Assembly (NCBI GenBank): GCA_000004985.1
Contig: GG738894.1
Direction: 5' to 3' (one strand)
Source: Naegleria gruberi
Taxonomy: Eukaryota
DNA: 64,000 bases
Positions 4,009 to 51,024 of the stretch are shown here, one piece after another (position 1 is the stretch's first letter; each line of letters opens with the position of its first letter). A program made the translations under genes and the position numbers. The notes beneath the pieces were generated by a model. That model was given only the letters and a program-made list of their open reading frames with translations. It was not told where the DNA came from and did no database searches.

Positions 4009-7000
4009 TCAAATAATGGAGTTTATTTCTTCAGTCTTGACGATTGCTCCCACATGATACTTATTGTCCAATAAATAAGTCTGAAGAATTCCCTTTCCTT
4101 TTACTGCGATACTACGCTCCTCAAATGTGAATTCTAAATCAAAAACTCTTTCATATGTTTTTCTTGACAGTTGAATTCTTCCAGGTAAACTAGTGCTTTC
4201 CATCCTACTTGCTGTAGTTATGGAAAGAAAATAAGAAAATCATTAAATAATTATTACCACACTTCAAACTTACCTGTGTTGATATTGTCTCCCCAAAGAT
4301 CGTATGCAAACTTCTTCTTTCCAATCACTCCAGCTGTTACACTTCCTGTGTGTATACCTATTCTAATATTTATCTGTTTTTCAACAGGCTTTCTTGAAGT
4401 AATGTTGTAGTTACGAATAACATTGAAACAATCAATGGAAAATCTAAGAATTCTCTCTGGATGATTAATGTCAACATTGTTTAACCCTGCACAACAAAAG
4501 TAAGAATCACCAATGGTTTTGATTTTTTCCACATTATATTTGTCAGTCAAACCATCAAATCCATCAACCACACAATTCAGTAATTGCACTAACTCTGTAT
4601 GTGTTAATTGTGAGGTCAATGCAGTGAATTCAACCATATCACTAAAGAAACAGGTGACATCTGGGTGTTTCTCCGCAATAAGAGATGCTCCAGCCAAAAG
4701 TTGACGAGCTACAGAGCTAGGTAGAATATTAAGAAGCATATTTTCCGATTTCTTCTTTTCTTCGTTTAGTAATAAAATTGCCTTCTTCTCTAAGGTGGAT
4801 TCTTTGATGAAAAATAATGTAATGTGTTTGTTTTCAAAGAATGTTACATAGATATTGACTGTTGCAGGGAAAGTCTTTTGATTTTTTCTGACACACTCAA
4901 GTTCAAAAGTTTCTCCTTTAGGGCAGGTTTTTGTTACTTGTTTTTTGATGGATTCGACTTCGTTCTTAACCAAAGTTTGGTGTTCTCTTGTGAATATTTT
5001 AATAGGTTTACCAATAACATCTTCGAGTTGATAACCAAACATTCTTTGAGCTGAAGGATTGAAAATATCCACTAGCATTGTATCATTACATGTAATTACA
5101 CCATCAACAAATGTGTTAAGAATTGTCACTAGTTTTGCATCTCGCTCTGACGTGACACCATTGTTGGTAAATAATTTGGATGGGTTTTCATTAGGTAGTG
5201 TTTTAAATAATGCAAAGTTTTTAAGTTTCTCGTTGAACACCAAAGTATCTATCGATAGGTAATCGAACATGATTCTCATTTGTTGTTCTGCATTAGCATA
5301 TTCACGGAAAATGTAATACATCGAACAAATCGAGCAAGTGACAAGTACAAAGCCAATTACAAAACTCGCTATCACATAATTAATATTTGGTACAGAGGCA
5401 TCAACAGCGAAAATATTTGCAAAATCAATCAATTTCATCGATGACAAGTTAAAAAGAAATAAAATCTTAAGTAAGGAAGTAATATGTTCCTTGATAGTCA
5501 CTGGTTGAAATAAAATTGTCTGGGCCAATAAATTTTGTTTCAACAATATTTGTGTTGATAATAATATATGTGTTAGCATTGTATCTATTCCAATGCCACA
5601 AGTGCTGTTAAAATGAGTGTCAGTTTCTGGAATGGTACAATTTGGATCGCCCTTAATCAAGTGGTCTGTACCGGGAAACATGCCTGCAACTACTGATTCA
5701 AAGGGTTTTGTAGTTGATCCGAATAAACACCAATCCCAATTCCTTTGAAGATTTGCTGCCTCTTGATAATATTGAAGAGTCATATTTAAAGCTTCATCCT
5801 CTGTTATCAATGGTATATCGTCAACATTTCTATAATAAGCATATAGTTCAGTACTGTAAAATGCTACATTTTGCAGATGCTTGGTAGTTTCAAATACGTC
5901 TTGTACATTTACAAAGGATTCAACCGAATAATGGGTATTGTCAAACAAGCCACATACGAATACTGCCGTACACACTCCAACTGTTAAAAATATTACTATT
6001 ATCAAAATGGGGAAACATATCTTATGTTTGAGAGGATCTACTTTTCCTGCATGAGTAATCACTTCTTGTGGTTGTTGTTCGCATAATGTGTGGTATATTT
6101 CACCAACTTCTGGTTTAGAGACACACTCTTTCAGTAGCTTGACATGATTTTTCAATCTAGAGAAAGTGAATCTTGAATATATCAAATATAATACACACAC
6201 TATTAACAAGCAAGGTAACACGGCTGCTGTGTAAATGATTAAAACATTCCTCGAATTCAATGCCTCATCTATATGAACTTGTGTGTAAGAATGACAAAAT
6301 AAAGAATATGCCTGTGTAAGGGTATTTTGATTTCTATAAAGAAACATGAACATAAAGGATGTGTAGGTTTGTAGTAAAGCTTCACTTGTTTCTGACAAGA
6401 AGCGATTTGCCAATAGTTTTAAAATCTTATTGATTTGAGAGAGTGGGTACTTGTTTGACTCAGTCAGGTTATATAAACCTCCTCCTGGTATTACAGTTGG
6501 AATTACTAATGAATAGTGGAAATCAGTAAATTGAGAGTAGATTTGAGGTGAAAACTTTGAGGCAAAAGCAACGTTTTCTAAATTGACTATCGATTGTGTG
6601 AAATATTCGACATGCTGTTTGTATTTATCCATGTCAAAATAAATATCATTCGTCCAATTATGTTCGATGGTGATATTTGATTGCATCCAGTGGTCAATAA
6701 TCTGATACCCTCTTCCTGAAAGTAATAAGTTAGTGACACAGGGTATTGTGGCACATGCCTCCTTAGAATGTAGCAAATTGCTTGTTGCTTGATTGGAATA
6801 AATCAGTGACAGCAAGAATGGAGTGATGAGAGCAACCAAGAACAGTATGCAAAAGCCAACAAATAGTATGATAAAAACAGTTCGGCGTGTTGGAGTTGCA
6901 AGAGCATTGCTATAAATCATCTTTCTTGTTTGTGGATCCAGTGTTTCAAATTCTTCTAACGTTTGCTCCTCATTTTCTCTCCCATCAGTGGTAATTTCAG

Positions 7001-8900
7001 ACACAGAAGATTCACCTTCAGCTTTTTTAGTGGATCTGTTGCATTCATTTTCTTCGAGTAAGTTTGCTTTGTTAAAATTCTCATTTGATAATTCTGGATT
7101 TGCTTTAAATGATACCAAATATTGTGCATATATTCTTAGTGCTGTTTTGTCTTGACTATAAAAAGGAACAAGGTTGTTAAATATACAGTCACACTCGGCA
7201 ACTAGCTTGGAGCTTCTAAAAATGACTCTTTCAATTTTTTCCATAATAATACTTTCTTTCAGAAACTCTTTCCAAAAATCCTTATGAAGAGCATAAAGTT
7301 CTTCGGTTTTTCTCCGAATTTTAGACAGTATTAATACCAGTTCTGACTTGGAATCATCTTCACAAAGATACGCCTCAATTTCCTTCTTCTTTTGGCACAA
7401 TGAATACGAAGAAACAAAATTTGCATACTTTGGTGTCATATTTTTTGTTAAAATTGAAAAAGCCAATGTACGTTCACCCTTCGTTTGATATGCCATTATT
7501 GATGCTGATACTAAGGGCAACCTCATACTGCTGTTTAAATCTTGTAAGGTTGCCTTGATAAATGCTATTATCCCTGAATGATACTTGCTTCGTTTAGGTC
7601 CTTTCATCATTTCAAACTTTAAAAAAAGACCCAATAGGTAAACAATTCTATCATCTTGGAGATTTAAGTTTTTTGAGACTGTATATGTTCCAGTGTCTGG
7701 TTCTTCTTTAAAAAACTTGTTCTTAAATTTATACATATTGTATCTTGTATAACATTCCATTGTCACACATCCAATTAAAGCCATCAATAGCATCAACCCC
7801 AGAGTAGCTGAAAACAATATTATTCCAAGAGTGTTATCGTTGGTCACATTGACAAAATATGTCACAAGACCAGATACACTTGTGGCCAGTCTACAGAAAA
7901 TGATACCACTAATAACAGTATTTTCAAATCTTCTTAGCATTGGTATTGTTTGAAAAACAAGTATTATCAATAGTAGAGTCGAAATTATGTGTACAATAGA
8001 TCTTAAATATGCCGTGTACGGAGGAATTAGATGATGAATGACAATCCCAACAACATTGCACAACGGAATAGTGGCCTGAAAGATAATATTGTCATTTAGC
8101 ATTGGGGAGTTGCTTAATGGATGAGAATTTGGTAGAATCAATATTGATAGACCAAGTACAATTATAAAAACAACTATTGAAAGCAATGATAATATCATCA
8201 GAGGAATGTTGATAGAATCGAAACAAGGGGAACCTGGGAATCGATTCAACACCATTCCATTAGGTGCCCGACTAAATGGAATAACTACAGCAAGTGGTTC
8301 AGGTTGCGTCAAGCCATAACTGCAGTCTACAAAGGAAGTTAACACGTATGTGACAGGTGCCGAGATCAATAAACAAGTGTAACATAGAATATGTACCACT
8401 TTTTTCAGGAGCTTCCTCCTGCTACTTACTCTTTTCACAGCAGTATTAGCCAAAATAAAACAGCACACAATTGCCACAATAGTGATCATAAAAAATACAG
8501 CAAGACCAAGGTTAGCATAATATGGAAATGTCCATGATGCAAGAGTTATTGGAAAGTTCAAAACTTTGATGATCCAACTAGCCCATACTCCAAATCTGAA
8601 AGACACTGGATTTAGTAACGGTATCCATACAAAACACCAAAACAATACAAGCTGTACGATGAGTTGCTTAAGAAACTCAATGGTTCCTTTTCTAATTTTG
8701 TTTGCCTGCATTGCAAACAAGAAGATAAAAAACTCATTCGCTATGGCAGACCCAAACTCTGATGATAGAGTAGAGCTCTGGCAAGTAATAGATGTAGAAA
8801 ATCCGTTTTGTTTTTTTTCATCCTTGTTTGTGTCCTTAGTTTTGTTTGGTTTCTCAATACTGATGGCTCCATTATGCTGAAGTCTTATATAGCCTTGCAT
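4009..8900 (-). CDS. multi-pass-membrane, PAS-containing class III adenylate/guanylate cyclase, paralog 1 (~1580 aa)
   Basis: Structure on the minus strand is join(4274..8900, 4009..4211). The intron 4212..4273 (GTAAGT...CAG, phase 1) rebuilds the canonical motif ...FAYDLWGDNINT|ASRMESTS...GRIQLS. There are two blocks of about 6 TM helices, then a PAS-like segment and a C-terminal cyclase catalytic domain with motifs FFSDMVEFT, IKTIGDSYF, RIGIHTG and ASRMES. The ATG at 8900 was chosen by comparison with paralog 20528..25928, although the ORF stays open to 9149. Confidence 0.8.
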
Positions 8901-8989
8901 TTCGATTTCAAACTTTGCATTGTCTAATTCAACTTCTTGTCTCAAATCATTTGGTATGAGATTATTATCCACATTGTTAATATTCAACT

Positions 8990-10211
8990 TTGGGTCTCTT
9001 CTGCTGTACATGAGCATGTAAGCATTTGTGGAATCGCCAATAATCTCATCATTTCCATACATGGATTCTATTTGAGATTTATCAATTTCATCAATATAAT
9101 TATCATTAAATTTAAACCATTTCCCTGAATGGAACGATCTTATTAACACAAAGTAATGCTTTAAAAAAGGTCACTAAAAAGCTAGCTATTTTACATACCC
9201 CTGTAAGTGCATCTCCAGAATGAATGATAACACTATAAAGATCAAATAAATGTTGCTGATCATCTACATATTTTGACATGTCCAACACAAAGGGAAAGGT
9301 AACTTTGTTTCCAAGCTAATACTACAATTACATTAATATGAACAAGTTCATACTTACCTTGACAGGAGTATTTGTTTGATAATCAACCCTCTTGAGTTGA
9401 AGTGTTAAAATGTAGGGAAGATGAGCCAATTTTAAATTCTTGACCGCATCTATTTTCTTATTTCCAAGCTCCTCACAACACCATTGATTATCTCCCTTCA
9501 TTTCCTCAGATTTTAAAAAACTTTCAATGGCCTCCTCGACACTGGACACATCCCGAATAGCCAATTGCAAATCCATAAAACTGTCCACTTTGGTGGTTTG
9601 ATATACTTCACCACTTTGTTTCTTCTCATCCACAGACTCGATATGATCTATTACAGTGCCACAAAACAGGTCGCTGAAGGATACATTGCTATCGTTATTG
9701 TAATTTTTTTGTGGTGGTGATGAATCAGTTTCTTTAGAATGGGATCCGTCAGTCAGCACGTCGAACAAGATCCTAAACACTTCATGAATATCGTGTTGAA
9801 CTTTTAAATCTGATGCTTGCCAGCCTAAGCATAGAAAAATTTTCGCACACGAATCAATCATATTATGTGTTGATAATGAAATCTAAGGACAATCGAAAAC
9901 TTACCAAATGAATTTGTTAACTGTGTGGTGTCCACTGAGTTTCTCTTTGATAAAGTCAAATAGGCAAACAAGCGTTGCAATTGATAAGGGACGCAATGGT
10001 CCTGGTCAGGATCATGCTCAGGATCGTACCTCCATTTGAAAACCAACTCACGAAATTTTGGTGTGTGATGCAGAGATTGTAGTAGAGAATTTAAATAACA
10101 TGTGGTTCCATTATTGGTGAGGCCAACAAAATGCTCTTCCTCTTGTGCACTACAAGATTGACGCCAGTTGGTGTTGGATGGTCCACTTGATGTTTCGTGG
10201 TTGTACTGCAT
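8990..10211 (-). CDS. USP7-like ubiquitin carboxyl-terminal hydrolase catalytic domain (no MATH domain); 3' end unresolved
   Basis: Exons on the minus strand: 9905..10211 (ATG at 10211; Cys box GLTNNGTTCYLNSLLQSL), 9358..9824 (SFGWQASDLKVQHDIHEVFRILFDVL ... LPYILTLQLKRVDY), 9199..9315 (LYSVIIHSGDALTG) and from 9158 downward (HYFVLIRSFHSGKWFKFNDNYIDEI...STNAYMLMYSRR). Introns are 9825..9904, 9316..9357 and 9159..9198, all with GTAAGT or GTATGT donors. The frame has no stop after the last USP motif and runs straight into the cyclase ORF. Confidence 0.65.
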
Positions 10212-20527: not shown

Positions 20528-23500
20528 ATGCAAGCCTCATCTAGTGGACAATTTGAATCCGATGGAGAGGGTTCTGATTTTTTGACAAATAACAATAATA
20601 TTAATGGTGGAGGTGGAGGAACCAATGGTGCTCCCTTAGCAAATCCACAACAAGCAATGAGTAATGTCGGAACGAGTAGTGTTGGTTCGACAGTTTCAAC
20701 TAATACCGATTCTAATCTTTCAAAGAATGTTGTGTCCATGTTTAGAGATCAATTCATTGGATTTATGATATCATTCAATGCAAAAGTATCGAGAATTTCC
20801 AAGCTAAAGTATGGTATCCTTAATATTTTGATATATGTGTACTTGTGGTACGTTACAATGGTACTCTCCTCTTGTCCTTCAAGAATTGATGAAGAAACAT
20901 CTGCATCTGCATCATCATCTTCAACAACATCTTCCTCACATCACTACTTGTGGGGAGAAATACCAGGTTGGATTCATAGAGCCTTATTCTATCCCATAAA
21001 TTTTGGCGTAGAACATTACCCTTACGAGCTAACATTGACAATATCTGCGCTATATCTGCTTGCTGAGGTTATTTGCATTGGACTCTTAGTTCTCTTTCAA
21101 GTGGCCAAGAATAAGGGAAGCAAATGGAGTGAAAAGATTAATTCAATTGCTTCCAAACTGATACTTTTCCTTATTGTGACTTCACATTTTGCATTGTGGA
21201 TTCATACAGTACCTATGGCACCACTCGAATCAATACCACTAGGACACGGTTCATCAACAATAACGAGTAGTTCATCATCATCAAAAACATCTTCTTCAGC
21301 AGAGGAGGACACTTATCTTTACTATTATCCTTCTCTTTCAATTAGTTCAACAGTGAATATTATTTTCATAGTGATTGGTGCACTTGGTGTGGTTTGCAAT
21401 GTTGGAGTGACACTGTTGGGATTCATTCTCACTGCAGAAACTGTTCCACCAATGAAGAAATATTCCTTATTTTCAATTGATAGAGTGGAGCCAACAGCTG
21501 TTCTTCTTTTCACAAATCAATTGAGTGTAATTGTTACTGTTATTGTAACTTCTCATTTGGCAGTCGTGTCGAGTGCATTCAAGATTGTAATCTCTGGAAT
21601 ATGCTTGATTTTCTTCATGAACAAAATACCCCACTACAGAAAGTGGGAGAATTCTTTAATGGTGGGAGTAATGTTTGGAAAGACTTTGGGAAGTATTGGA
21701 CCTCTTGTTTCTGATCTAATAGTCTCGGGCGAAACAAATGCAACTACTCTTGGAGGAGCACTAACTGGTGTCACTATTGGATTGCAAGTAATTGGATTCA
21801 TTATAGGATTCATTGGATTTTACATTTATCTAAGCATGATAACTAGGTCTGTTCGTAAATTCTTATTATCAGAATTTGAGGATAAGAAGAAGGATAAAAT
21901 AGGAGCACAACAAGCATTTGCCTATTTTGAAGAGAATAAGAATATGAAGAAGCTGTCACTCTATATCAAATTATCAATGGGAGAAAATGGTTCTGCAAAC
22001 TTTAATGTGGCCACTCGATTTGTGAGGAATATTGGTGTTTCCAGAAGTATGACCAATGTGGATTTCCTCATTACAGCAGCCATATTCTCTGCATTCCATC
22101 CGGATGTAGATGACCAATTTACATGCATTGCCAATGCCATTCATTTACTTCAGAGAGCTCAAAAACAACATCCATCACTCTCGTTCAAGTACATGATCAT
22201 GTTAAGGCATAAGGAAATTGAGGAGAATATGAATACCATATCTGCTATTAATATTGAATTGAGACAAATGTTACAGACATTGGATAAGAAACAACACTTG
22301 TTACAATATTTCCATAGAGAATTTTACAAGGAACTTTTGAATGAACATCCTTCATTGTCCAAGATGGAAAATATCAATAGAACTATATCCATTATAGTTC
22401 AGGATTGTGATCTCAAGTTTAGAAATTTACTAGTCTCCCATCCTAATGATAAAACCCTATTGAGATCGTACGCCTGTTACTTGGAAACTTGTAGGTGGGA
22501 GAAGGAGCTAGCAGCTGAATACTATGATGATGCCAATCAAATTGAGGAAGAAGAGGCAAGAAAACACCATCATAAGAAGGCAAAGAATAACTTTATGAGT
22601 AGTGACTTTTCAAAGAGAAGAGCCATTCCAACAGCATCAAACAAAGTCGTACCAATATCCAATATGGCTGCTAATTTCGATCGTAAAATTAATGCCTCAC
22701 TGGATTTTGATGTTGTGGAGAAATCGTTAGATCATAAACATGATGAAGAAAATTGGGAATCAGTATCAAATGCAGAGGAGTTATCTAAGAAGGAAGACTT
22801 GTTCAGAATTGCAATCAACACTGAGGATGACCATACTTTTACCAAAATTTGGTTTTCCATATTCACCATGTTCTCTATCATTGTCATTTCTGTAATTATT
22901 GGTTTTGGAATGGGCCAGCTCAAGATTACAACAGACAGAGTTTCACTGCAAGAGAAGGTTTGCTCACTGAGTGGAATTCCTTACCTCATTGTTTCACAAT
23001 TAAGATCAGTGCAGTCCATCTATAGATTCTCTTCCTCTTCGTGGGAGCAAACTCTCAAGGTACCACTGGTTGCAAATATAGCAAAGAATCAATTAAGCAT
23101 GTTGATGGAGAAGGTACAACATGTCAAAGATGCCTCAAACAATGGTGAATTTGTTCCCGAAGTTGTTGAAATGTACAATGAAGTTCGTTGGACGAATATC
23201 ATTCCTATTAAACAACAAACAGAGGAAACAAGCATTCCATTGTACCATAAAGTGAACGGATCGATTGCAGAGTTTGTCGAATCCATGTTGACACAAGCTC
23301 ATGAACTTGAGAAACAGTTTGATAATTTACATGTATTGAATGTTACCATGTCAAATTATAACTTTTTATACTAGTAAGTTTTATATCCTTCATTGAATTC
23401 TCTATAACGTGAAATAGTTATTTGGGAAGAACTGAAATGACAGAAGCTTTTGACTATTTTTGTTCTACCTTCATCAAGAGTTCAGAAAGCACAGAAATAG

Positions 23501-33500: not shown

Positions 33501-34871
33501 CTAGTACTCTGGTTTAGTCTTCCTGAAAAGCATGATATATTTCACCTTCTTCATTAAAATATACTCAACTTCCAATTCTTCTGGCAATCCAGATTCAGAA
33601 AAATTGTAAGGCACCTTCAATGCCACACATTGAACTCCATCTTCGAGTAAAAGTTGTTTGGAGAATGTCTTGACACTGATTGGTGTGAGGTTCTCTTGAA
33701 TCATGTACAAGTCATCAATAAAATCGTGCAATGAATAATCTTGATTTCCCCAAGGAGGATCAAAAAAGACAAATGTTTCAGGCATCTTGTCTCCCAAGTT
33801 TCCTCTCTCCTTTTGCCACCAATCAATAAAATTACCTGAAATTACATTACAAGTGACACAGTCTCTATCATACTTTTTCTCCTCATTTTCAAACAAGTTA
33901 ATATTGTATCGTGCATCGTTGCATCTTCTTTCATCTAGTTCAATCATGGTTACTGTTTTTCTGTGGAGACGTTTGGACCAGAAATATCTTAAAAATCCAA
34001 TAATATTTCCTCCCAAGCCACCAGTTCCATCAACCAAGTGATTTGGATAGAAACCAGTTTTCTGTTTTATCATTTCATTCATGAGGGAGGCAATTTCAAA
34101 GGCATCATTAAAAGGAGTAAGATAGGAAAGTGCCAACTCTGAATCAAATCTCACCTTATTGACCAAATGTTTAGGGAAGAAACCATACATGTTTTCTGAA
34201 TATTTTCTAAACTTGTAGTGATTTTCCAATGTTCTTGGTAGTTCAGGATTTGATTTTGGTTTTGAGGTAGATTTTGCTTCCTTTTCTTCTTCTGTTTGCT
34301 TCTTTTTTACAATGTTTAGTGATTTTTTCACGTGTCTAATAGTTTCCTCCAAAGTTTGATTTGCAACAATGTAGTGAGTATCCTTTGAACTCATTGTGGA
34401 TAATTTTTGTTTTTCCAATTCAAGGACTTTGAGTGCTGCCTTTAACTGTATTTGTAAATTCTTAATTTCATTCATTAGAGTGGCAGAAGAGGCAGTAGTG
34501 AGAGTTGGTGATTCAATTGATTCTTCCTGTTTTTTTCTAGTGTTAGTATTTACAAGAATGCTTGTCAATGGATTATTATCATTTTGTACTGTTGATGATT
34601 GATTAGGATAATTTACATGAACAGGAGTGGAAGTGGTGGTATTGATATCATTATTTAACATGGAATTTTGTGGGAAAAGTTGGGAGAGGAAGTGTGATTG
34701 TTGTGGTTGTTCTACACTAGCAGTAGTATTCACCATGGTATTCGATTGTTCGGTTGGCTCGTTGAAAAAGCTCTTTTCAATATCATCAACAGAACACATG
34801 CCCATCATTGGTGGATAGCCCATCATCATGCCATGAGGAGGCCACATACCCGATGATGGATTATTCATCAT
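33501..34871 (-). CDS. TGS1: trimethylguanosine synthase (TGS1)-like RNA cap guanine-N2 methyltransferase
   Basis: 456 aa. Low-complexity M/P/N/Q-rich N-terminus. C-terminal methyltransferase with motif I LVDGTGGLGGNIIGF, the acidic loop IELDERRCNDARYNINLF and motif IV VFFDPPWGNQDY. All align with human TGS1 (VVDAFCGVGGNTIQF / IDIDPVKIALARNNAEVY / VFLSPPWGGPDY). Confidence 0.7.
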   Translation of the reverse strand: MMNNPSSGMWPPHGMMMGYPPMMGMCSVDDIEKSFFNEPTEQSNTMVNTTASVEQPQQSHFLSQLFPQNSMLNNDINTTTSTPVHVNYPNQSSTVQNDNNPLTSILVNTNTRKKQEESIESPTLTTASSATLMNEIKNLQIQLKAALKVLELEKQKLSTMSSKDTHYIVANQTLEETIRHVKKSLNIVKKKQTEEEKEAKSTSKPKSNPELPRTLENHYKFRKYSENMYGFFPKHLVNKVRFDSELALSYLTPFNDAFEIASLMNEMIKQKTGFYPNHLVDGTGGLGGNIIGFLRYFWSKRLHRKTVTMIELDERRCNDARYNINLFENEEKKYDRDCVTCNVISGNFIDWWQKERGNLGDKMPETFVFFDPPWGNQDYSLHDFIDDLYMIQENLTPISVKTFSKQLLLEDGVQCVALKVPYNFSESGLPEELEVEYILMKKVKYIMLFRKTKPEY

Positions 34872-35398
34872 CCATTGATGATGATAAAATTGATTTTCCT
34901 GTTGTTGTTGTTGTGGTTGTTGATTAGAGGCTTCATGTTGTTGTTGTTAGGAAACCACGAAGATGACGAATTATTTCCACTATTAATTGCTACATCACCA
35001 TGATGAGCCAATTCACCTCCATTATTATTAACATTTCCAAAATTATTAAACATCATCATTAAATTAGAATTATTAAATTGTTGTTGTTGTGGAGGTGGAG
35101 GCGGTTGATGATTCCACCACATGTTATTATTATTATTCGGAGGAGGAGGAGCCATCATCATCATCATTGAATTATTATTATTCATTGATCCTTGATATAA
35201 TCTAGGTGATAGATTGGTCGTTGTATTATTGTTGTTGCTAATATTATTCATCATTAATAATTTACTTCCTTGTTGATTATTATTATTCTGGGATGATGAA
35301 GTGGTAGTCTTTAATAGATGAGTGGTGGTGAGATCGGCACCAGAGGGTGTCAACATTGATTGTTGTTGTTGCTGAAGCTGCTGATGGGGAGGAAACAT
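34868..35398 (-). CDS. N/Q/P/M-rich low-complexity ORF directly upstream of TGS1 and overlapping it out of frame (doubtful)
   Basis: 176-codon ORF encoded largely by (GTT)n/(AAC)n microsatellite. It ends 4 nt into the TGS1 ORF in a different frame. It could be a 5' extension of TGS1 after a frameshift, or a repeat artefact. Confidence 0.2.
   Translation of the reverse strand: MFPPHQQLQQQQQSMLTPSGADLTTTHLLKTTTSSSQNNNNQQGSKLLMMNNISNNNNTTTNLSPRLYQGSMNNNNSMMMMMAPPPPNNNNNMWWNHQPPPPPQQQQFNNSNLMMMFNNFGNVNNNGGELAHHGDVAINSGNNSSSSWFPNNNNMKPLINNHNNNNRKINFIIING
34885..35110. repeat. GTT/GTTGTG microsatellite-rich tract (poly-N/Q when read on the minus strand)
   Basis: Runs of gttgttgttgttgtggttgttg / tgttgttgttgttag / ttgttgttgttgtggaggtggaggcgg are visible in the sequence. 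Confidence 0.5.
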
Positions 35399-37112: not shown

Positions 37113-37424
37113 TGATGAAAATTGTTTTCAACGTTTTAACTGCATTCACCAAATAGAAAACCTTTGTGTGTGAACGACTAATTACCAGTGGAATCACATG
37201 ACTAAAAGCACACATGAACAATAATAGCTAGTGAACATGTTACAGCTTATTAGTTGTTAAATAATATTGTAATACTAAGAATCTCATTCTTTTTAAGGAA
37301 AAGAGCATGAAAAAGTCGCCGATTCAAACAGCATTTCTCCTTATTAAACGCAGTCCATATTCCATTTCATCCATTCTATATTTAAATACCAATTTGTGAT
37401 TCTTTCTTTTTACAATACAAAAAA

Positions 37425-37835
37425 ATGTCCAAAATACTTCCACCATTCACATTAGAAACTGCCCAAAAGAAAGTTAAACTTGCACAAGATAATTGGAATT
37501 CAAAAGATCCAGAACGCATTGCTCTCGCCTACACTGAAGATTGTGAATGGAGAAATAGAAATGAATTCATTAAGGGAAGAACTGATATTAAAAAATTCCT
37601 TAAAAAAAAGTATGCCAAAGAATTAGATTACAAATTGGAAAAATATTTATTTGCATTTATGGATAACAAAATTTCAGTTCATTTTCAATATGAATATCAC
37701 AATGAAAATGGACAATGGTTCCGAGCTTATGGAAATGAGAATTGGGAATTTGATTGGGAATCGGGATTAATGATGAAGAGAGATGCAAGTATTAATGATC
37801 TTGCAATTCAAGAATCCGAAAGGAAATTTAAATAA
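37425..37835 (+). CDS. DUF1348 family protein (NTF2-like fold), bacterial-type
   Basis: 136 aa, intronless. Near-colinear with bacterial DUF1348 proteins as I recall their consensus (not searched): [47 protein letters not shown]...[49 protein letters not shown]...[14 protein letters not shown]. Confidence 0.8.
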
Positions 37836-37870
37836 ATCTATTGAAGTATAATTATCCAATCCTAAAAATA

Positions 37871-40800
37871 TTAAATACTGATATTTTCAGCAGTTGGTGA
37901 AGAACAACTGTCATCATTTCCACTCAACATTTGAATCTTTCTCTTCATTAAATTATTGTGTTCCATCAGATCTAACAAGTGACGATTCAATTTTTCACCA
38001 GGTACAACTGTTGTTCGAGGTGTGATTGGAGAGGTGGTTATAATTGGTTCTTCTGGAGTATCGTGTAATTGTGAAAGTGTACTCTCAATTGATTCAATGG
38101 TTGTCTCTTGTGATATTTCTGGTTCAGGTAGAACTGCAGTTCTGAAAGTGAGAAGTGGAGAAGCAACACGAATATCCAATAATTGCATACTCATTCTCAA
38201 CAATTCAGTTTCGTACGATTTCATCTTGGTTCTCAAATTAGTTGTTTGAATGTCCTTCAATTCTGAAAGCTCTTCTGATAATTCCTTAAATTGATTTCCA
38301 AATTGATTCTCCACTATTTGGAATGCATCCTTATCTCCCTTATCTGCCAATAAATTTCTAAAAGTCTCTAGGAGAGACTGTAATTTGAATATTGTCATGT
38401 CAATCTCTTTGGTTTTTTGTTGAATATCATTTCTGAACTTGTCCTTCAATGAACTCAATTTGGAGTATAATACATTAACCAAAGATGATTCATTGGTTGG
38501 AAATTCTGAGGCATCTACTGAATTTGAATTCGATGGTGAAGTAGCTTCTTCCATCGTTGAGGAGGTAGTTGTTGGAGTTGTTGCTACTGTAGGACTGGAT
38601 GTGGCCTTTGAGTTTAGAACAGGGAATGAATTTTGACGTTTCAAATCCTTAAATCTTCTCTCCTTCAATGAATTTGGAATAACCAAAAACAAGGTTGTGT
38701 TCTTGAGACCTGACTTGGCAGTGACACAATTGTCCAATCTCTGAACCAGTGATTCAATAGTATTAGTATCTGGAGGCAATGTATTATTTTGCTTTTCAAT
38801 TGCCAAATTTTCCATTACTTGAGCTTCTGCTAGTGTCTGACCTCCCTGTGCATATTGAGCTATCATTGAGGCTCTCCTGATGGCTTGCAGTGTTGAGTCG
38901 GTGAACTTTTTAGAACGAGCAGAGATACCCATTCGACAACGAAGTCCTCTAAATAAGAGTTTGATATTATTCTTCTGATAGGTGCAAATTCCTTCGAGTG
39001 AGAGAAGAGAATCTGGCCAATCGGCATCCATCATTTTAGTTTGAACTAGGAGTGAGAATTTGAGAGCTTGTCTCGCAGTTTCAAATCCACACACTACTGA
39101 ATCACTCACAATATTGTGGAATTCATCATGTTTCACAGCAGGTGTAGTGTCCATTCCCATATTTTCCTTGAGACATCTCCTCAAAACATCAAAATAGATT
39201 GAAACACTCTTGGTAATGTCCTCGTGTGGAATACTCCACAATTGATTACATCCTTGCAAGTCACAATACACAAAATATTTCAATCTCTCCTCAATGTCAA
39301 AGAATTTAGTTTCGTGAGAAGCATTGAGTGAAACTTCTGGAATGGACATTTTACAATATCCCTCCTTTTCAGCTTCTATAATTTCCAAAATAGAGTACAA
39401 ATCTTCCATATCCTTCTTTACGTGTTCAATTTCTTCCCTAACTGTTGCTTGTTGCATTTTCAATGAATCTTCGAGTTGTTTAATTTTCATGTCCAATTTT
39501 TCTTGTTGAATGGAGGTGGCCAATGAATTCTCAGAGAAGGGTTTCGTTGGAGAATAGGGAACCGAATTGGAATTATTCATCACAGAGAGGTTATTATTCG
39601 ATGAGAACTTTTTAACCATCAGTGGTGAAATGGTAATGGTATTGTTACCTCCACTATTCTTTCGAGGAGGAGATTCTGGAGGCAATTGTGGAAAGACAAT
39701 TTGAGGAGGCGTATTTTCAGAATCGATTCGAGCCGATCCATTGAAAGATCTTGCAGATTTGATTGAAATTGGTGCAGAGGAAACTGAATCATTGCTTCGT
39801 GTCGTAGTTTGTCCATTCACCAACGAGTCAGGAACCAAATAACTCTCATTCTCATCAATTAAAAAGAAGGTGTCATATTTTGGAGCTGTTGGTACAGTTT
39901 TAGAGGTTTGCCTCTCTCGTGTTGAAATACTATCGGTAAGCCACATTGAACTGATTTGCATTCTCAATTTGGCTGTCAATACTAGAGGTGAATTTGATGG
40001 AGCTTCAATTGACAATTTAACTGGAACGAGAATGGTTCTACTCATTGAACCCACTCCACAATAAATCATATGTGGAGGAGTTACAAAATCTGTCAAATTC
40101 AACTTGACAAAACCACTTCTCTTATCACTTGTAATTCTTCCACTGCCACTACTTTTCAATTCTCTAATTTCCAAAACGAGGGGTTTATCTTCCAATAACG
40201 ATTGCATATTCTTGACATAGAATGGTAAAAATGGATCTTCTTGTGAACCACTTCCAGATCCTGAACCATTATTCGAATTTAACATGTTAATTATTTCAGT
40301 TAATGGTTTTTCCTTCTTTGGTTTAAAATCACACACAAAATCATATTCATAATCCTTAAAATCTGCCAAATAAATAATGGAATTCTTTTTAGAGTTTGGT
40401 GAATTTTGATTTGTCGAGTTTGGATTTGTCGATGGAGACATGGATCGACTCCAACACGTATTAATATAATCATAATCTTCAAAAATTGCATCATTGGAAC
40501 ATGTTTTTGAAATGACATTTGCTGGTTCAGTTGCTCCACCAATTACGAAACTATTCGATCCACTTCTACTAAAAAGTGATGAAATACTTGATTCTTCCTC
40601 ATTATTTTGCAATACTTTCCAATGAATGGAATATCTGGATTGTAACAATTTCATTAGGGCATTAGAAACTGCAATCGATTCAGAATCTTCTGAACGTTGA
40701 GAAGCACTTGAAATTCCACTATTTGTACTTCTGGAAGTTTCATTTCCATTTTGTGGTTCATTATTACTGTAATTGTGGAACATTTTGTGTCCTAGTGTGT

Positions 40801-41137
40801 GAATTGAAACATTTCCACTATTATTATTACCAAAAGATGATGAACGTCCCAAATTGGAGTTTCCACCACTTTCGTTTACTTTTTCTAATGATGATGCAAG
40901 TGTCATTAAATCAAAATCTTCCAATGCGAATATATGAATGTTAAATAGACATTTTAATTGTGTAGGATCACTATTATTCGAATTTGATTTAATGGCTGCA
41001 GTAACTTTGCTGTTGGAACGGGCACGTGGCAGGTTAGAGGTTGATGATGAAGATGATGATGGTTTCATATGTCGTTGAACATCGAGACGTCCTTCGTTGG
41101 CGTCGTTTATACTGCCGAATCTAAATAATCTCTTCAT
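37871..41137 (-). CDS. large S/N-rich coiled-coil protein with a divergent class III nucleotide-cyclase homology domain (CHD)
   Basis: 1088 aa, starting at the ATG at 41137. The mid region FVYCDLQGCNQLW...VSDSVVCGF...LRCRMGISAR...TDSTLQAIRRASMIAQYAQGGQTL follows the CHD motif order (FxFxDIxGFT ... GDxxM ... RIGIHxG ... NxAARxxxxAxxGQIL), but catalytic positions are substituted. The N-terminal part is C2-like; there are long coiled coils. Confidence 0.45.
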   Translation of the reverse strand: MKRLFRFGSINDANEGRLDVQRHMKPSSSSSSTSNLPRARSNSKVTAAIKSNSNNSDPTQLKCLFNIHIFALEDFDLMTLASSLEKVNESGGNSNLGRSSSFGNNNSGNVSIHTLGHKMFHNYSNNEPQNGNETSRSTNSGISSASQRSEDSESIAVSNALMKLLQSRYSIHWKVLQNNEEESSISSLFSRSGSNSFVIGGATEPANVISKTCSNDAIFEDYDYINTCWSRSMSPSTNPNSTNQNSPNSKKNSIIYLADFKDYEYDFVCDFKPKKEKPLTEIINMLNSNNGSGSGSGSQEDPFLPFYVKNMQSLLEDKPLVLEIRELKSSGSGRITSDKRSGFVKLNLTDFVTPPHMIYCGVGSMSRTILVPVKLSIEAPSNSPLVLTAKLRMQISSMWLTDSISTRERQTSKTVPTAPKYDTFFLIDENESYLVPDSLVNGQTTTRSNDSVSSAPISIKSARSFNGSARIDSENTPPQIVFPQLPPESPPRKNSGGNNTITISPLMVKKFSSNNNLSVMNNSNSVPYSPTKPFSENSLATSIQQEKLDMKIKQLEDSLKMQQATVREEIEHVKKDMEDLYSILEIIEAEKEGYCKMSIPEVSLNASHETKFFDIEERLKYFVYCDLQGCNQLWSIPHEDITKSVSIYFDVLRRCLKENMGMDTTPAVKHDEFHNIVSDSVVCGFETARQALKFSLLVQTKMMDADWPDSLLSLEGICTYQKNNIKLLFRGLRCRMGISARSKKFTDSTLQAIRRASMIAQYAQGGQTLAEAQVMENLAIEKQNNTLPPDTNTIESLVQRLDNCVTAKSGLKNTTLFLVIPNSLKERRFKDLKRQNSFPVLNSKATSSPTVATTPTTTSSTMEEATSPSNSNSVDASEFPTNESSLVNVLYSKLSSLKDKFRNDIQQKTKEIDMTIFKLQSLLETFRNLLADKGDKDAFQIVENQFGNQFKELSEELSELKDIQTTNLRTKMKSYETELLRMSMQLLDIRVASPLLTFRTAVLPEPEISQETTIESIESTLSQLHDTPEEPIITTSPITPRTTVVPGEKLNRHLLDLMEHNNLMKRKIQMLSGNDDSCSSPTAENISI

Positions 41138-48831: not shown

Positions 48832-51024
48832 ATGATAAGGAAGAACTCTAATTTATCATCATCATCATCTTCATGGCTATGCATTAGCATGTTGATCATG
48901 ATGCTAACTCTCGTATTCACCTCTCAACATGTCCTCTCACTCATGAACACAACCACAGTTGTCAGTGGTGAATATCCTGCCTCTGTACAGACAGGCACGA
49001 TGAATATCTATTGGAAGTTCCATAATAAGGTTACAGGCTTGCTTCAAGATGACGATCTTATTGAAATTGCAATTGTTGCCAAGACAAAGGGTTGGTTGGC
49101 TATTGGTTTGGATTTTAACAAGACTGGTATGACACAAGCTGATTGTTACATTGGTTTTTATGATCAGACAAATTCAAGACCAGTTCTCTATGATTTTTGG
49201 TTACCTGGAAAGTCAATTCCAAAGAATGATTCACTTTTTTTAGGTCAAGATGACATTTTACAATTGACTGGTTCATTAAAAGATGGAACCACTACTTTGA
49301 AATTCTTGAGAAAGATTGATACTGGTGATATTCATGCTGATCACCCAATTAGAAATAGAACTATTGGTGTTAGTTATGCTTTCAATATTAACACAATTGA
49401 TGTCACTCAGAAACACACTACTCATGGCGATTTTTTCATTAATTTCGTCACACAAAAAGGTGCATTGAATTTGGCACCTGCTCCATTGATTCAATTCCAC
49501 ATTATTGCAACTGCATCTGTTGCCATTTTGATGGCTGCTATTGGTTTGTCTTATACTTTCATTTCAATGAAGGAGAAGAATCGTGTAATTAGTTTAGTTT
49601 TCCACACCAAGTTTACAGGTTTGATCAAGAACCCAATTCTCGGTTCCATTTTCAATCCAATTTTGGAGTTGACCATTGGTGAAATTACTCTCATCTTGTT
49701 CCATCTCATGCTTACTGCTGTGTGGTTCTGTTTTGGATTTTTCAACAGTACTTCAGCAAACGTTGGTAAAGGATTTGCCTATGCCATTATTATCAATTTG
49801 ACTGCTACCATCTTGCCAATTACTAGATATTCTGCATTTGTCTTTGTTTTTGGTATTTCATTTGAAAGAGCTGTCAAGTATCACAAATGGGTTGCTAGAT
49901 TAACTCTTCTTATTGCTACTATTCACGGTATTTTGATGACTGTTCACTTGGCAGACAATGGAAGTCTTGGTAACATTCTTACTGCATCAGCAAATGATTA
50001 CATCTTATTTGGATTAATTGCTTGGATTGCCATGGTCATTATGACTATCTTTGCTTTGGAACCAATTCGTAGAAAGTTCTGGGAATTGTTCAAGGTAATT
50101 CACATTATTCTTGCCCCAGTTGTCCTCGTCATGTCTTCAATCCACGCCAAAGGTTGGGAAAGAACTCTCCCAGTTCTTGGTATTGCCATGGGTTTATTAG
50201 TTATTGATCATTTGCTCAGAATTATCTTTGGTTATATCATGCCAACTAAGGTTATCAAGATGGAATATGAGGAAAAGACTGGAATTACTACAATGGTATT
50301 TGAAAAGCCAACTATTAGTATGTGGTATATGGAAAGTTTGGGAATGGGCAAGTTTGTCTATGTCTACATTCCAGGTGTTAGTTTCTTCCAATCTCATCCA
50401 TTCACTATCAGTAGTTATTCTAAATTAGATAGTTCTATTGAATTCACATGTCATGTTAAGAATTTAGGAAGGGGTTGGACAAAGAAATTGGCAGATTTTG
50501 CCATGAAGAGAAAATACTCTGCTGCCTCAATCTTTGCCAGAGTTGAAGGTCCATACGGTAAATTATCAGTTGATTTGAATACCTATTCTACTGTTGTATT
50601 GATTGCTGGTGGTATTGGTGTTACTCCAATTAATGCAATCTACAATGAAATTACAAGTAATAAGGTTAATGCTTCCAAGCAAAATATCTATGTTTTGTGG
50701 ACCATGAAGGATGAACACATGATACAATTATTCCCTAATTTGACTCAACCATCTTCTCAAGTCAAACAAAGCTTTTATATTACTGGTGAAAATCATAAGC
50801 AAGTTAACGAATCAGATACCAGCTATCAATATCATTACAATATGAGACCAAACTTTGGTAAATTCTTCCACATGGTTTCTGAAACTGTTGGATCAGATAA
50901 TAGTGTTGCTGTAGTTGTTTGTGGACCAACTCAAATGAATGTTGATGTTTATAATGCTGCAAGAAGAGTTGGAAGGGAAGAGAGAGTTAATTTCCATGTT
51001 CACAGAGAAACCTTTGAATTGTAA
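48832..51024 (+). CDS. DOMON domain + ferric reductase/NADPH-oxidase-type transmembrane flavocytochrome
   Basis: 730 aa. Signal peptide, then a DOMON-like beta-sandwich (YWKFHNKVTGLL...IEIAIVAKTKGWLAIGLDFNKTGMTQADCYIGFY...TTTLKFLRKIDTGD). After that comes a ferric-reductase TM domain with heme-His motifs (HKWVARLTLLIATIHGIL; ...VIHIILAPVVLVMSSIHAK), the FAD-binding HPFTISS and the NAD(P)-binding motifs GPYG and IAGGIGVTP. Confidence 0.8.
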   Translation: MIRKNSNLSSSSSSWLCISMLIMMLTLVFTSQHVLSLMNTTTVVSGEYPASVQTGTMNIYWKFHNKVTGLLQDDDLIEIAIVAKTKGWLAIGLDFNKTGMTQADCYIGFYDQTNSRPVLYDFWLPGKSIPKNDSLFLGQDDILQLTGSLKDGTTTLKFLRKIDTGDIHADHPIRNRTIGVSYAFNINTIDVTQKHTTHGDFFINFVTQKGALNLAPAPLIQFHIIATASVAILMAAIGLSYTFISMKEKNRVISLVFHTKFTGLIKNPILGSIFNPILELTIGEITLILFHLMLTAVWFCFGFFNSTSANVGKGFAYAIIINLTATILPITRYSAFVFVFGISFERAVKYHKWVARLTLLIATIHGILMTVHLADNGSLGNILTASANDYILFGLIAWIAMVIMTIFALEPIRRKFWELFKVIHIILAPVVLVMSSIHAKGWERTLPVLGIAMGLLVIDHLLRIIFGYIMPTKVIKMEYEEKTGITTMVFEKPTISMWYMESLGMGKFVYVYIPGVSFFQSHPFTISSYSKLDSSIEFTCHVKNLGRGWTKKLADFAMKRKYSAASIFARVEGPYGKLSVDLNTYSTVVLIAGGIGVTPINAIYNEITSNKVNASKQNIYVLWTMKDEHMIQLFPNLTQPSSQVKQSFYITGENHKQVNESDTSYQYHYNMRPNFGKFFHMVSETVGSDNSVAVVVCGPTQMNVDVYNAARRVGREERVNFHVHRETFEL

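What the first reader, a model, noticed from the sequence alone, without database searches (positions are those of the whole stretch)
37425..37835. Intronless bacterial-type DUF1348 gene embedded among intron-containing eukaryotic genes: a horizontal gene transfer candidate
The 136-aa product is near-colinear with bacterial DUF1348 (NTF2-like) proteins. As far as I recall, that family is mainly bacterial, with patchy eukaryotic occurrence. Its base composition and codon usage match the host, and it is flanked by bona fide eukaryotic genes on both sides. Contamination is therefore unlikely; an old, ameliorated transfer is plausible.
Basis: partly seen in the sequence, partly recalled or inferred. 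Interest (0 to 1): 0.5.

Follow-up and report, generated by a model that had tools for sequence, protein, structure and literature searches.

The report
Bacterial-type DUF1348 gene in Naegleria
A small, intronless gene of a mostly bacterial protein family sits in a Naegleria amoeba chromosome; it was probably taken from bacteria before Naegleria and Willaertia diverged, which is an ordinary event for these amoebae.

Summary
Window 37425..37835 (+) is one uninterrupted 136-aa ORF that matches Pfam DUF1348 end to end (205.8 bits) and folds like the DUF1348 crystal structure 2imj (TM 0.95). The window is Naegleria nuclear DNA. Codon usage fits the host, a spliceosomal intron was confirmed in another gene of the window, and the gene is under purifying selection (dN/dS 0.07-0.3).

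Orthologues with the same derived signatures, including a one-residue insertion, occur in N. fowleri, N. lovaniensis and Willaertia magna on 250-760 kb nuclear contigs. Their tree follows the species tree, so the gene predates the Naegleria/Willaertia split and has been inherited vertically since.

The closest relatives outside the clade are bacterial: Bacteroidota and cyanobacteria (66-73% identity), and a gammaproteobacterial subfamily that shares the derived motifs. Other eukaryotic DUF1348 proteins (chytrid, Symbiodiniaceae, red/brown/cryptophyte algae) fall in separate clusters.

My ML regrafting test favours a bacterial sister (RELL about 0.8). It does not reject a chytrid/dinoflagellate sister (about 0.18). 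Ancient horizontal transfer is therefore the best reading, but the donor is unresolved.

The function is unknown. Fold and bacterial gene context suggest a small-molecule detoxification enzyme. This is an ordinary HGT candidate of low to moderate interest.

The parts
37425..37835 (+). DUF1348 (NTF2-like) coding sequence: 136 codons plus TAA, no intron
   Evidence: ORF. PF07080 full length, 205.8 bits. 2imj E 3.5e-51. AlphaFold model pLDDT 96.3, TM 0.95 to 2imj. dN/dS 0.07-0.30 against three relatives.
37755..37757 (+). Codon of the one-residue insertion (W111 in FDWESG) that marks the heterolobosean clade. It lies in the loop between the last two beta strands.
   Evidence: Among 371 DUF1348 sequences the insertion occurs only in the window protein, P0001, P0002 (N. 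fowleri), P0003, P0432 (Willaertia) and the chytrid P0322. It lies between strands E98-109 and E116-128 of the model.
37113..37424 (+). 5' intergenic region, the presumed promoter and 5' UTR. It is A/T-rich (GC 0.30) with an A-run directly before the ATG and no Shine-Dalgarno motif.
   Evidence: Sequence and GC. No function was tested.
37831..37836 (+). AATAAA hexamer overlapping the stop codon, a possible poly(A) signal
   Evidence: Read directly from the sequence. This is weak evidence in DNA of 31% GC, and its use in Naegleria is not established.
37836..37870 (.). 35-bp spacer between the stop codons of DUF1348 and the convergent 1088-aa gene
   Evidence: The same arrangement is present in metagenome contig L002, which is 98.9% identical.
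37871..41137 (-). Convergent downstream neighbour: 1088-aa Ser/Asn-rich protein with no Pfam domain. It is a host gene, not part of the transferred unit.
   Evidence: It is conserved next to DUF1348 in L002 but not in the N. fowleri or Willaertia loci.

Best explanation
The gene encodes a cytosolic NTF2-like/SnoaL-like protein of the DUF1348 family. A heterolobosean ancestor acquired it from a bacterium before Naegleria and Willaertia diverged. The donor lineage is unresolved; the candidates are Bacteroidota-like or a Cellvibrionales/Alteromonadales-like gammaproteobacterium. Since then the gene has been inherited vertically, recoded to each host's composition, moved around the genome, and kept under purifying selection.

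How it most likely works (inferred, not shown): a small cone-shaped alpha+beta protein binds a hydrophobic or electrophilic small molecule in a pocket lined by family-invariant Tyr, Asp, Trp, Arg and Glu residues. It carries out acid-base chemistry of the isomerase, cyclase or epoxide-hydrolase type as part of xenobiotic or oxidative-stress detoxification.
For: Shown:
- Full-length DUF1348 match and fold.
- Host-like codon usage. In each of three hosts the gene's GC tracks that host's GC.
- Orthologues in N. fowleri, N. lovaniensis and Willaertia on large nuclear contigs, all single-exon.
- Clade-specific signatures: the insertion, ISVHF, K[YF]xxELDY and KRDASIND.
- Both ML trees recover (Willaertia,(window,(P0003,(lovaniensis,fowleri)))). 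NJ bootstrap is 99% for the Naegleria-type sequences.
- dN/dS 0.07-0.30.

Bacterial origin:
- All top non-heterolobosean hits are bacterial at 66-73% identity. Named eukaryotic representatives are at most about 62% identical.
- A gammaproteobacterial subfamily shares LFxF, VHFxYEYH and RDASIN. P. denitrificans also shares [14 protein letters not shown] and [11 protein letters not shown].
- ML places the clade beside gammaproteobacteria or Bacteroidota, RELL about 0.82 in total.
- Willaertia keeps bacterial-like residues (E21, LKKELF, YEWHD) where Naegleria resembles the chytrid/P0245 group, so those resemblances arose inside Naegleria.

Function:
- Next-best folds are ketosteroid isomerases, SalBIII and NsrQ, at TM about 0.73.
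- The gammaproteobacterial genes sit beside a divergent TetR regulator and GST, glutaredoxin, alpha/beta-hydrolase, DJ-1/PfpI and PNPOx-FNR-2Fe2S genes.
- The fungal DUF1348 protein 71cR is induced under cercosporin toxicity and raised cercosporin resistance when expressed in Neurospora (PMC4608573).
Against: - The placement is not significant. A sister relationship to the chytrid/Symbiodiniaceae/P0245 eukaryote group costs only 6.8 lnL units (KH z 0.47, RELL about 0.18).
- NJ bootstrap support is weak: 23% or less for any bacterial sister, and 51% for heterolobosean monophyly once Willaertia is included.
- The one-residue insertion, the Cys of DCxWRNR and LFxF are also present in the chytrid.
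- The phylogeny used my own ML code with a Gonnet-derived rate matrix, NNI search only, and 128 columns.
- Presence or absence in other Heterolobosea and Discoba was not determined.
- No expression data were found.
- The function is inferred from context in distant bacteria and from one fungal study in which the knockout had no phenotype.
Confidence: 0.62

Rival explanations
1. The heterolobosean gene shares its origin with the chytrid/Symbiodiniaceae/P0245 eukaryote group. One bacterial-to-eukaryote transfer would have been followed by eukaryote-to-eukaryote relay, for example between amoebae and fungi or their prey, or by inheritance with many losses. The immediate donor would then have been a eukaryote.
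For: The one-residue insertion is found elsewhere only in the chytrid Entophlyctis P0322. LFxF and the DCxWRNR cysteine are shared with the chytrid and Symbiodiniaceae. Regrafting next to this group is not rejected (delta lnL -6.8 to -8.8, summed RELL about 0.18). In Acrasis kona many HGT candidates trace to fungi and other soil eukaryotes (PMC11589745).
Against: ML prefers bacterial neighbours in both data sets. The same 'eukaryote-like' motifs are present in gammaproteobacteria. Willaertia retains bacterial-type states at Q21 and LEK, so part of the resemblance is convergent. The insertion lies in a surface hairpin loop where indels recur easily. A position as sister to the chytrid alone has RELL 0.024. 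Identity to these eukaryotes is 50-62%, against 66-73% to bacteria.
Confidence: 0.18
2. DUF1348 is an ancient eukaryotic gene, present in the last eukaryotic common ancestor or of mitochondrial origin. It would have been inherited vertically into Heterolobosea and lost many times elsewhere, and its high similarity to bacteria would simply reflect very slow evolution.
For: The family is extremely conserved: only 158 clusters at 50% identity score below 1e-30, and more than 50 positions are near-invariant. It occurs in several eukaryotic supergroups. Deep branches are unresolved.
Against: Eukaryotic sequences do not form one clade. Joining Heterolobosea to the algal cluster costs at least 67 lnL units with local optimisation, and joining the P0278/P0321 cluster costs about 18. 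The window protein is as close to Bacteroidota (up to 73%) as to N. fowleri (73%). That is hard to reconcile with a divergence as old as eukaryotes, given that Suv3 is already down to 40% against Acrasis. Pfam counts are about 7:1 bacterial to eukaryotic.
Confidence: 0.1
3. The gene is bacterial contamination or an assembly artefact.
For: It is intronless and up to 73% identical to bacterial proteins.
Against: It lies 35 bp from a host gene, and the same arrangement occurs in an independent metagenome contig. It has host codon usage, 31% GC and no Shine-Dalgarno motif. Orthologues occur in three other heterolobosean assemblies.
Confidence: 0.01

Closest known systems
PFL_3262 of Pseudomonas fluorescens (PDB 2imj), the only solved DUF1348 structure
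   Same: Same Pfam family and fold: 59% identity, TM 0.95, rmsd 0.6 A over 132 columns. Its function is also uncharacterised.
   Different: The Pseudomonas-type proteins carry a C-terminal tail of about 20-25 residues (HWPLGRRPDDHPGLSELGL) that the Naegleria protein lacks. They also lack the one-residue insertion.
Gammaproteobacterial DUF1348 subfamily (Pseudoalteromonas denitrificans, Alteromonadaceae, Cellvibrionales, Halioglobus; loci L004-L014)
   Same: 136 aa with no tail. Shares LFxF, VHFxYEYH and RDASIN; P. denitrificans also shares [14 protein letters not shown] and [11 protein letters not shown]. One of the two best ML sister positions.
   Different: Only 56-67% identical to the window protein and lacks the insertion. 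Encoded in TetR-regulated operons with GST, Grx, hydrolase, DJ-1 or an oxidoreductase. No trace of that context exists in the Naegleria locus.
Bacteroidota and cyanobacterial DUF1348 (Flavobacterium, Chryseobacterium, Chitinophaga; Pseudanabaena)
   Same: Highest overall identity, 66-73% over 96-99% of the protein, with the same length and C-terminus (...ERKFK). The position beside the Bacteroidota group is statistically tied with the gammaproteobacterial sister position for best ML placement.
   Different: They have LWxF, RFEYEYH and R[FY]ASIND where the heteroloboseans have LFxF, HFQYEYH and RDASIND.
Cercospora nicotianae 71cR, a fungal DUF1348 protein
   Same: A eukaryotic, cytosolic DUF1348 protein and the only family member I found with experimental data. 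It is induced under cercosporin toxicity and raised resistance when expressed in Neurospora (PMC4608573).
   Different: Fungal. The knockout had no phenotype.
Ketosteroid isomerase, SnoaL-like cyclases, SalBIII and NsrQ (NTF2-like enzymes)
   Same: Same alpha+beta cone fold, TM about 0.73. Weak SnoaL_2 Pfam match at 27.8 bits.
   Different: Only 13-22% identity. Whether their catalytic residues are conserved was not examined, so the gene is not a member of those families.

Membership tests
DUF1348 (Pfam PF07080) | Score above the curated gathering threshold, with full-length profile coverage | tested here: met
   205.8 bits against 22.1; profile positions 1-130 of 130.
DUF1348 (Pfam PF07080) | Near-invariant family residues (PPF, WN, WRNR, YGNExWxF and others) | tested here: met
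   50 of 53 positions that are at least 93% conserved across 299 sequences are kept. The exceptions are E21Q, W63Y and R82K.
DUF1348 (Pfam PF07080) | Fold of the solved family member 2imj | tested here: met
   Model pLDDT 96.3. TM 0.95 and rmsd 0.6 A to 2imj.
NTF2-like / SnoaL-like superfamily enzymes (KSI, SnoaL, LEH type) | Alpha+beta cone fold | tested here: met
   Foldseek hits to KSI, SalBIII and NsrQ at E about 1e-7 to 1e-6, TM about 0.73.
NTF2-like / SnoaL-like superfamily enzymes (KSI, SnoaL, LEH type) | Catalytic acid/base residues positioned in the pocket, and demonstrated activity | not tested
   Model coordinates were not inspected, and no biochemistry exists for any DUF1348 protein that I could find.
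Bacterium-to-eukaryote horizontal gene transfer | The gene is physically part of a eukaryotic chromosome | tested here: met
Bacterium-to-eukaryote horizontal gene transfer | The recipient clade nests within bacterial sequences with strong statistical support | tested here: inconclusive
   The ML topology nests it among bacteria. RELL is about 0.82 for bacterial positions and about 0.18 for a eukaryote sister, the KH test is not significant, and NJ bootstrap is 23% or less.
Bacterium-to-eukaryote horizontal gene transfer | Patchy, polyphyletic distribution among eukaryotes | tested here: met
   There are separate clusters for Heterolobosea, chytrid + Symbiodiniaceae + P0245, P0278/P0321, and red/brown/xanthophyte/cryptophyte algae. 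Joining the algal cluster costs at least 67 lnL units.
Bacterium-to-eukaryote horizontal gene transfer | Absence from the recipient's wider relatives (other Heterolobosea, Euglenozoa, jakobids) | not tested

The most novel reading that the evidence does not exclude
DUF1348 may be a recurrently mobile detoxification gene that has entered eukaryotes at least four times. The heterolobosean copy may have been exchanged between eukaryotes (amoeba and chytrid), with the shared one-residue insertion as a rare marker of that relay rather than a convergence.
Probability: 0.12. Interest if true: 0.4.

Novelty: new member of a known kind. Interest (0 to 1): 0.25.

Why it matters
This adds one dated example to the large catalogue of bacterial-type metabolic genes in heterolobosean amoebae. 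Acrasis kona alone has 1,253 phylogenetically supported candidates (PMC11589745). The acquisition predates the Naegleria/Willaertia split.

The case also carries a caution. For a short and very conserved protein, best-hit ranking and shared motifs point to different donors, and a formal test cannot separate them.

The most useful by-product is functional. A conserved TetR-GST/Grx-hydrolase-DJ-1-oxidoreductase neighbourhood in gammaproteobacteria gives a testable detoxification hypothesis for an uncharacterised family that is also present in the pathogen N. fowleri.

Tried and rejected
- Exact-sequence look-ups of the window's DUF1348 and of the 1088-aa neighbour found nothing. The source genome's own proteins are therefore not in the collection. 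The organism was inferred from Suv3 instead.
- Microsynteny between the window and the N. fowleri and Willaertia loci (10 kb each side): none beyond the gene itself.
- A paralogue search in the window found only one copy.
- I first read LFxF, the Cys and RDASIN as eukaryote-specific signatures. I dropped that reading when the same motifs turned up in gammaproteobacteria.
- I suspected that P0410's contig might be eukaryotic because of a split Grx/Pyr_redox gene. Shine-Dalgarno motifs, a TetR gene and operon spacing rule that out.
- NJ with Kimura distances gave no useful deep support.
- Regrafting with only local branch optimisation overstated support, giving LWR 0.999. Full optimisation removed the effect.
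- An exon-chain search for the gene immediately upstream (35.5-37.1 kb) gave no model.
- Literature searches for the orthologues' locus tags and for Naegleria + SnoaL found nothing relevant.
- Cluster look-ups left many backbone sequences unnamed.

Full report
OBSERVATION

Window 37425..37835 (+) is a single ATG-to-TAA ORF of 136 codons. An in-frame stop lies 13 codons upstream of the ATG, so the protein has no room for an N-terminal targeting peptide. It matches Pfam DUF1348 (PF07080) over the whole profile, positions 1-130 of 130, at 205.8 bits against a 22.1-bit cut-off. It also matches the only solved family member, P. fluorescens PFL_3262 (PDB 2imj), at E 3.5e-51 with a single one-residue gap.

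HOST AND CONTEXT

- Window GC is 0.31-0.38 throughout.
- The other ORFs encode BTB/BACK, Suv3 helicase, PAS-adenylate cyclases with TmcB-type TPRs, a DOMON-ferric-reductase (NOX-like) protein, adenylosuccinate lyase and an AAA ATPase.
- Suv3 is 75% identical to N. lovaniensis, 70% to N. fowleri, 59% to Willaertia magna and 40% to Acrasis kona. A 100% match occurs only in a metagenome.
- The window is therefore nuclear DNA of a Naegleria species whose own proteins are not in the search collection. N. gruberi or a close relative is my inference.
- A 3.3-kb metagenome contig (ERZ929261) is 98.9% identical and carries the same gene pair.
- A canonical 62-nt intron (GTAAGT...CAG, window 4273..4212, minus strand) splits the cyclase motif GDNINT|ASRMES...KGKG, so spliced genes do occur in the window.
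- The two immediate neighbours were not shown to have introns. The downstream 1088-aa gene is one ORF, and I could not model the upstream gene.
- The DUF1348 gene has GC 0.307 and GC3 0.234. Its codon usage fits 16 host ORFs at the 68th percentile.
- There is no Shine-Dalgarno motif upstream, and an AATAAA overlaps the stop codon.
- The convergent neighbour's stop codon is only 35 bp away.

SISTER SPECIES

- Orthologues exist in N. fowleri (P0002, 73% identity, 252-kb contig), N. lovaniensis (P0493, 492-kb contig) and Willaertia magna (P0432, 67%, 757-kb contig). Two further metagenomic relatives were found.
- The N. fowleri and Willaertia genes are single exons among eukaryotic neighbours; the N. 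lovaniensis locus was not examined.
- There is no microsynteny with the window.
- In each host the gene's GC tracks that host's genome.
- All copies share derived characters that are absent or rare among 371 collected DUF1348 sequences: a one-residue insertion (WxFD-x-[ED]SGLM), ISVHF, K[YF]xxELDY and KRDASIND.
- Both ML trees recover (Willaertia,(window,(P0003,(N. lovaniensis,N. fowleri)))), which is the species tree.
- dN/dS is 0.07-0.08 within Naegleria and 0.26-0.30 against Willaertia, with dS saturated.
- The gene is therefore functional, predates the Naegleria/Willaertia split, and has been inherited vertically since.

WHERE THE CLADE COMES FROM

Similarity ranking:
- Apart from these relatives, every one of the top 120 hits in two searches is bacterial: Pseudanabaena and other cyanobacteria, and Flavobacterium, Chryseobacterium, Chitinophaga and other Bacteroidia, at 64-73% identity.
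- That is as close as the window protein is to N. fowleri.
- An exhaustive search of 50%-identity representatives found only 158 clusters below E 1e-30.

Eukaryotic members named among the representatives:
- Symbiodiniaceae (Cladocopium, Fugacium, Symbiodinium)
- the chytrid Entophlyctis
- a sequence from a hornwort transcriptome (P0245)
- the red alga Timspurckia, the cryptophyte Rhodomonas, brown algae and the xanthophyte Tribonema

Method: no phylogeny program was available, so I wrote NJ-with-bootstrap and ML code. The ML code uses a rate matrix derived from the Gonnet PAM250 matrix, four gamma categories with alpha 0.9, and NNI search.

Topology: in all trees the eukaryotic sequences fall into at least three or four separate clusters among bacterial ones. 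In the 79-taxon ML tree the heterolobosean clade was sister to P0410 + P0286.

The gammaproteobacterial subfamily:
- P0410's contig is bacterial. It has Shine-Dalgarno motifs, a divergent TetR gene and an operon.
- A scan of species-representative bacterial genomes placed its close relatives in Alteromonadaceae, Cellvibrionales, Halioglobus, Bermanella, Pseudoalteromonas denitrificans and Paraglaciecola.
- These proteins share LFxF, VHFxYEYH and RDASIN with the heteroloboseans. P. denitrificans also shares [14 protein letters not shown] and [11 protein letters not shown].
- With them added, ML again made the two groups sisters.

STRENGTH OF THE SIGNAL

I regrafted the heterolobosean subtree onto every backbone branch, fully re-optimised branch lengths for the contenders, and ran RELL and KH tests.

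| Sister position | lnL | RELL |
|---|---|---|
| Gammaproteobacterial subfamily | -8746.29 | 0.35 |
| Base of, or within, the Bacteroidota group | -8745.24 (best of the six positions) | about 0.47 (summed) |
| Chytrid/Symbiodiniaceae/P0245 eukaryote cluster | -8752.0 to -8754.0 (KH z 0.5-0.65) | about 0.18 (summed) |
| P0278/P0321 cluster | about 18 units worse than the best | 0.002 |

- Joining the algal cluster costs at least 67 lnL units with local optimisation.
- NJ bootstraps are low: 99% for the four Naegleria-type sequences, 51% once Willaertia is added, and 23% or less for any sister group.
- A bacterial sister is favoured about 4:1 but is not established, and the donor phylum is unresolved.

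Characters shared with the chytrid: the insertion, the Cys and LFxF argue for the eukaryote-relay rival. Three points weaken them:
- Two of the three characters also occur in gammaproteobacteria.
- Willaertia retains bacterial-type states (E21, LKKELF, YEWHD) where Naegleria resembles the chytrid/P0245 group.
- The insertion lies in a surface hairpin loop.

HOW IT PROBABLY WORKS (inference)

- After 2imj, the nearest folds are ketosteroid isomerases, the epoxide-hydrolase/cyclase-like SalBIII and the isomerase NsrQ, at TM about 0.73 and 13-22% identity.
- More than 50 positions are at least 93% conserved family-wide, many of them Tyr, Asp, Trp, Arg or Glu on the sheet.
- In gammaproteobacteria the gene follows a divergent TetR regulator. 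It is followed by GST, glutaredoxin, alpha/beta-hydrolase, DJ-1/PfpI or a PNPOx-FNR-2Fe2S oxidoreductase.
- The fungal DUF1348 protein 71cR is induced under cercosporin toxicity and increased resistance in Neurospora, although the knockout had no phenotype (PMC4608573).
- I therefore propose a cytosolic small-molecule isomerase/hydrolase-type detoxification enzyme, with low to moderate confidence.
- The heteroloboseans replace the near-invariant W63 with Y or F, and Naegleria replaces E21 with Q. This may mean altered substrate specificity.

NOVELTY AND VERDICT

The orthologues are already deposited as hypothetical or DUF1348 proteins. HGT is documented on a large scale in Heterolobosea (PMC11589745). 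I found no paper that discusses this gene. It is a new member of a known kind: a sound but ordinary ancient-HGT candidate whose donor remains unresolved.

Noticed in passing
window 37836-37870: The stop codons of DUF1348 (+) and of the convergent 1088-aa gene (-) are only 35 bp apart, so their 3' UTRs must overlap or be extremely short. The arrangement is identical in metagenome contig L002.
   Followed up: partly
window 4212-4273 (-), within the gene at 4254-9149: A canonical 62-nt spliceosomal intron (GTAAGT...CAG) splits the class III cyclase motif GDNINT|ASRMES in a PAS-adenylate cyclase gene. A second ORF with TmcB-type TPR repeats lies at 20528-23374 (+).
   Followed up: yes
loci L004-L013 (gammaproteobacterial genomes): DUF1348 sits in a conserved cluster. 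A TetR regulator is transcribed divergently upstream. GST, glutaredoxin, alpha/beta-hydrolase, DJ-1/PfpI or a roughly 700-aa PNPOx-FNR-2Fe2S oxidoreductase lie downstream. This is a functional lead for an uncharacterised family.
   Followed up: partly
window 33501-35398 (-): A Q/N-rich ORF (34868..35398) and a Tgs1-like cap guanine-N2 methyltransferase ORF (33501..34871) abut with an ATGA stop/start overlap. They are probably one gene interrupted by a frameshift or a short intron.
   Followed up: no
window 37485-37487 and 37611-37613 (codons 21 and 63): The heteroloboseans substitute two positions that are at least 95% invariant across the family. W63 becomes Y or F in all of them. E21 becomes Q in Naegleria only, while Willaertia keeps E.
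   Followed up: partly
L002 (ENA ERZ929261) and P0121: Environmental metagenome contigs are 98.9-100% identical to the window, so the same or a nearly identical Naegleria was present in that sample.
   Followed up: partly
window 48832-51024 (+): A 730-aa protein combines an N-terminal DOMON domain with a ferric-reductase/NOX-type transmembrane, FAD-binding and NAD-binding module.
   Followed up: no
representative proteins P0282, P0296, P0391, P0312, P0328, P0298, P0380, P0322: DUF1348 is present in Symbiodiniaceae, red, brown and xanthophyte algae, a cryptophyte and a chytrid. They fall in at least two further clusters, several with N-terminal extensions that may be targeting peptides. This suggests additional independent acquisitions.
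   Followed up: partly
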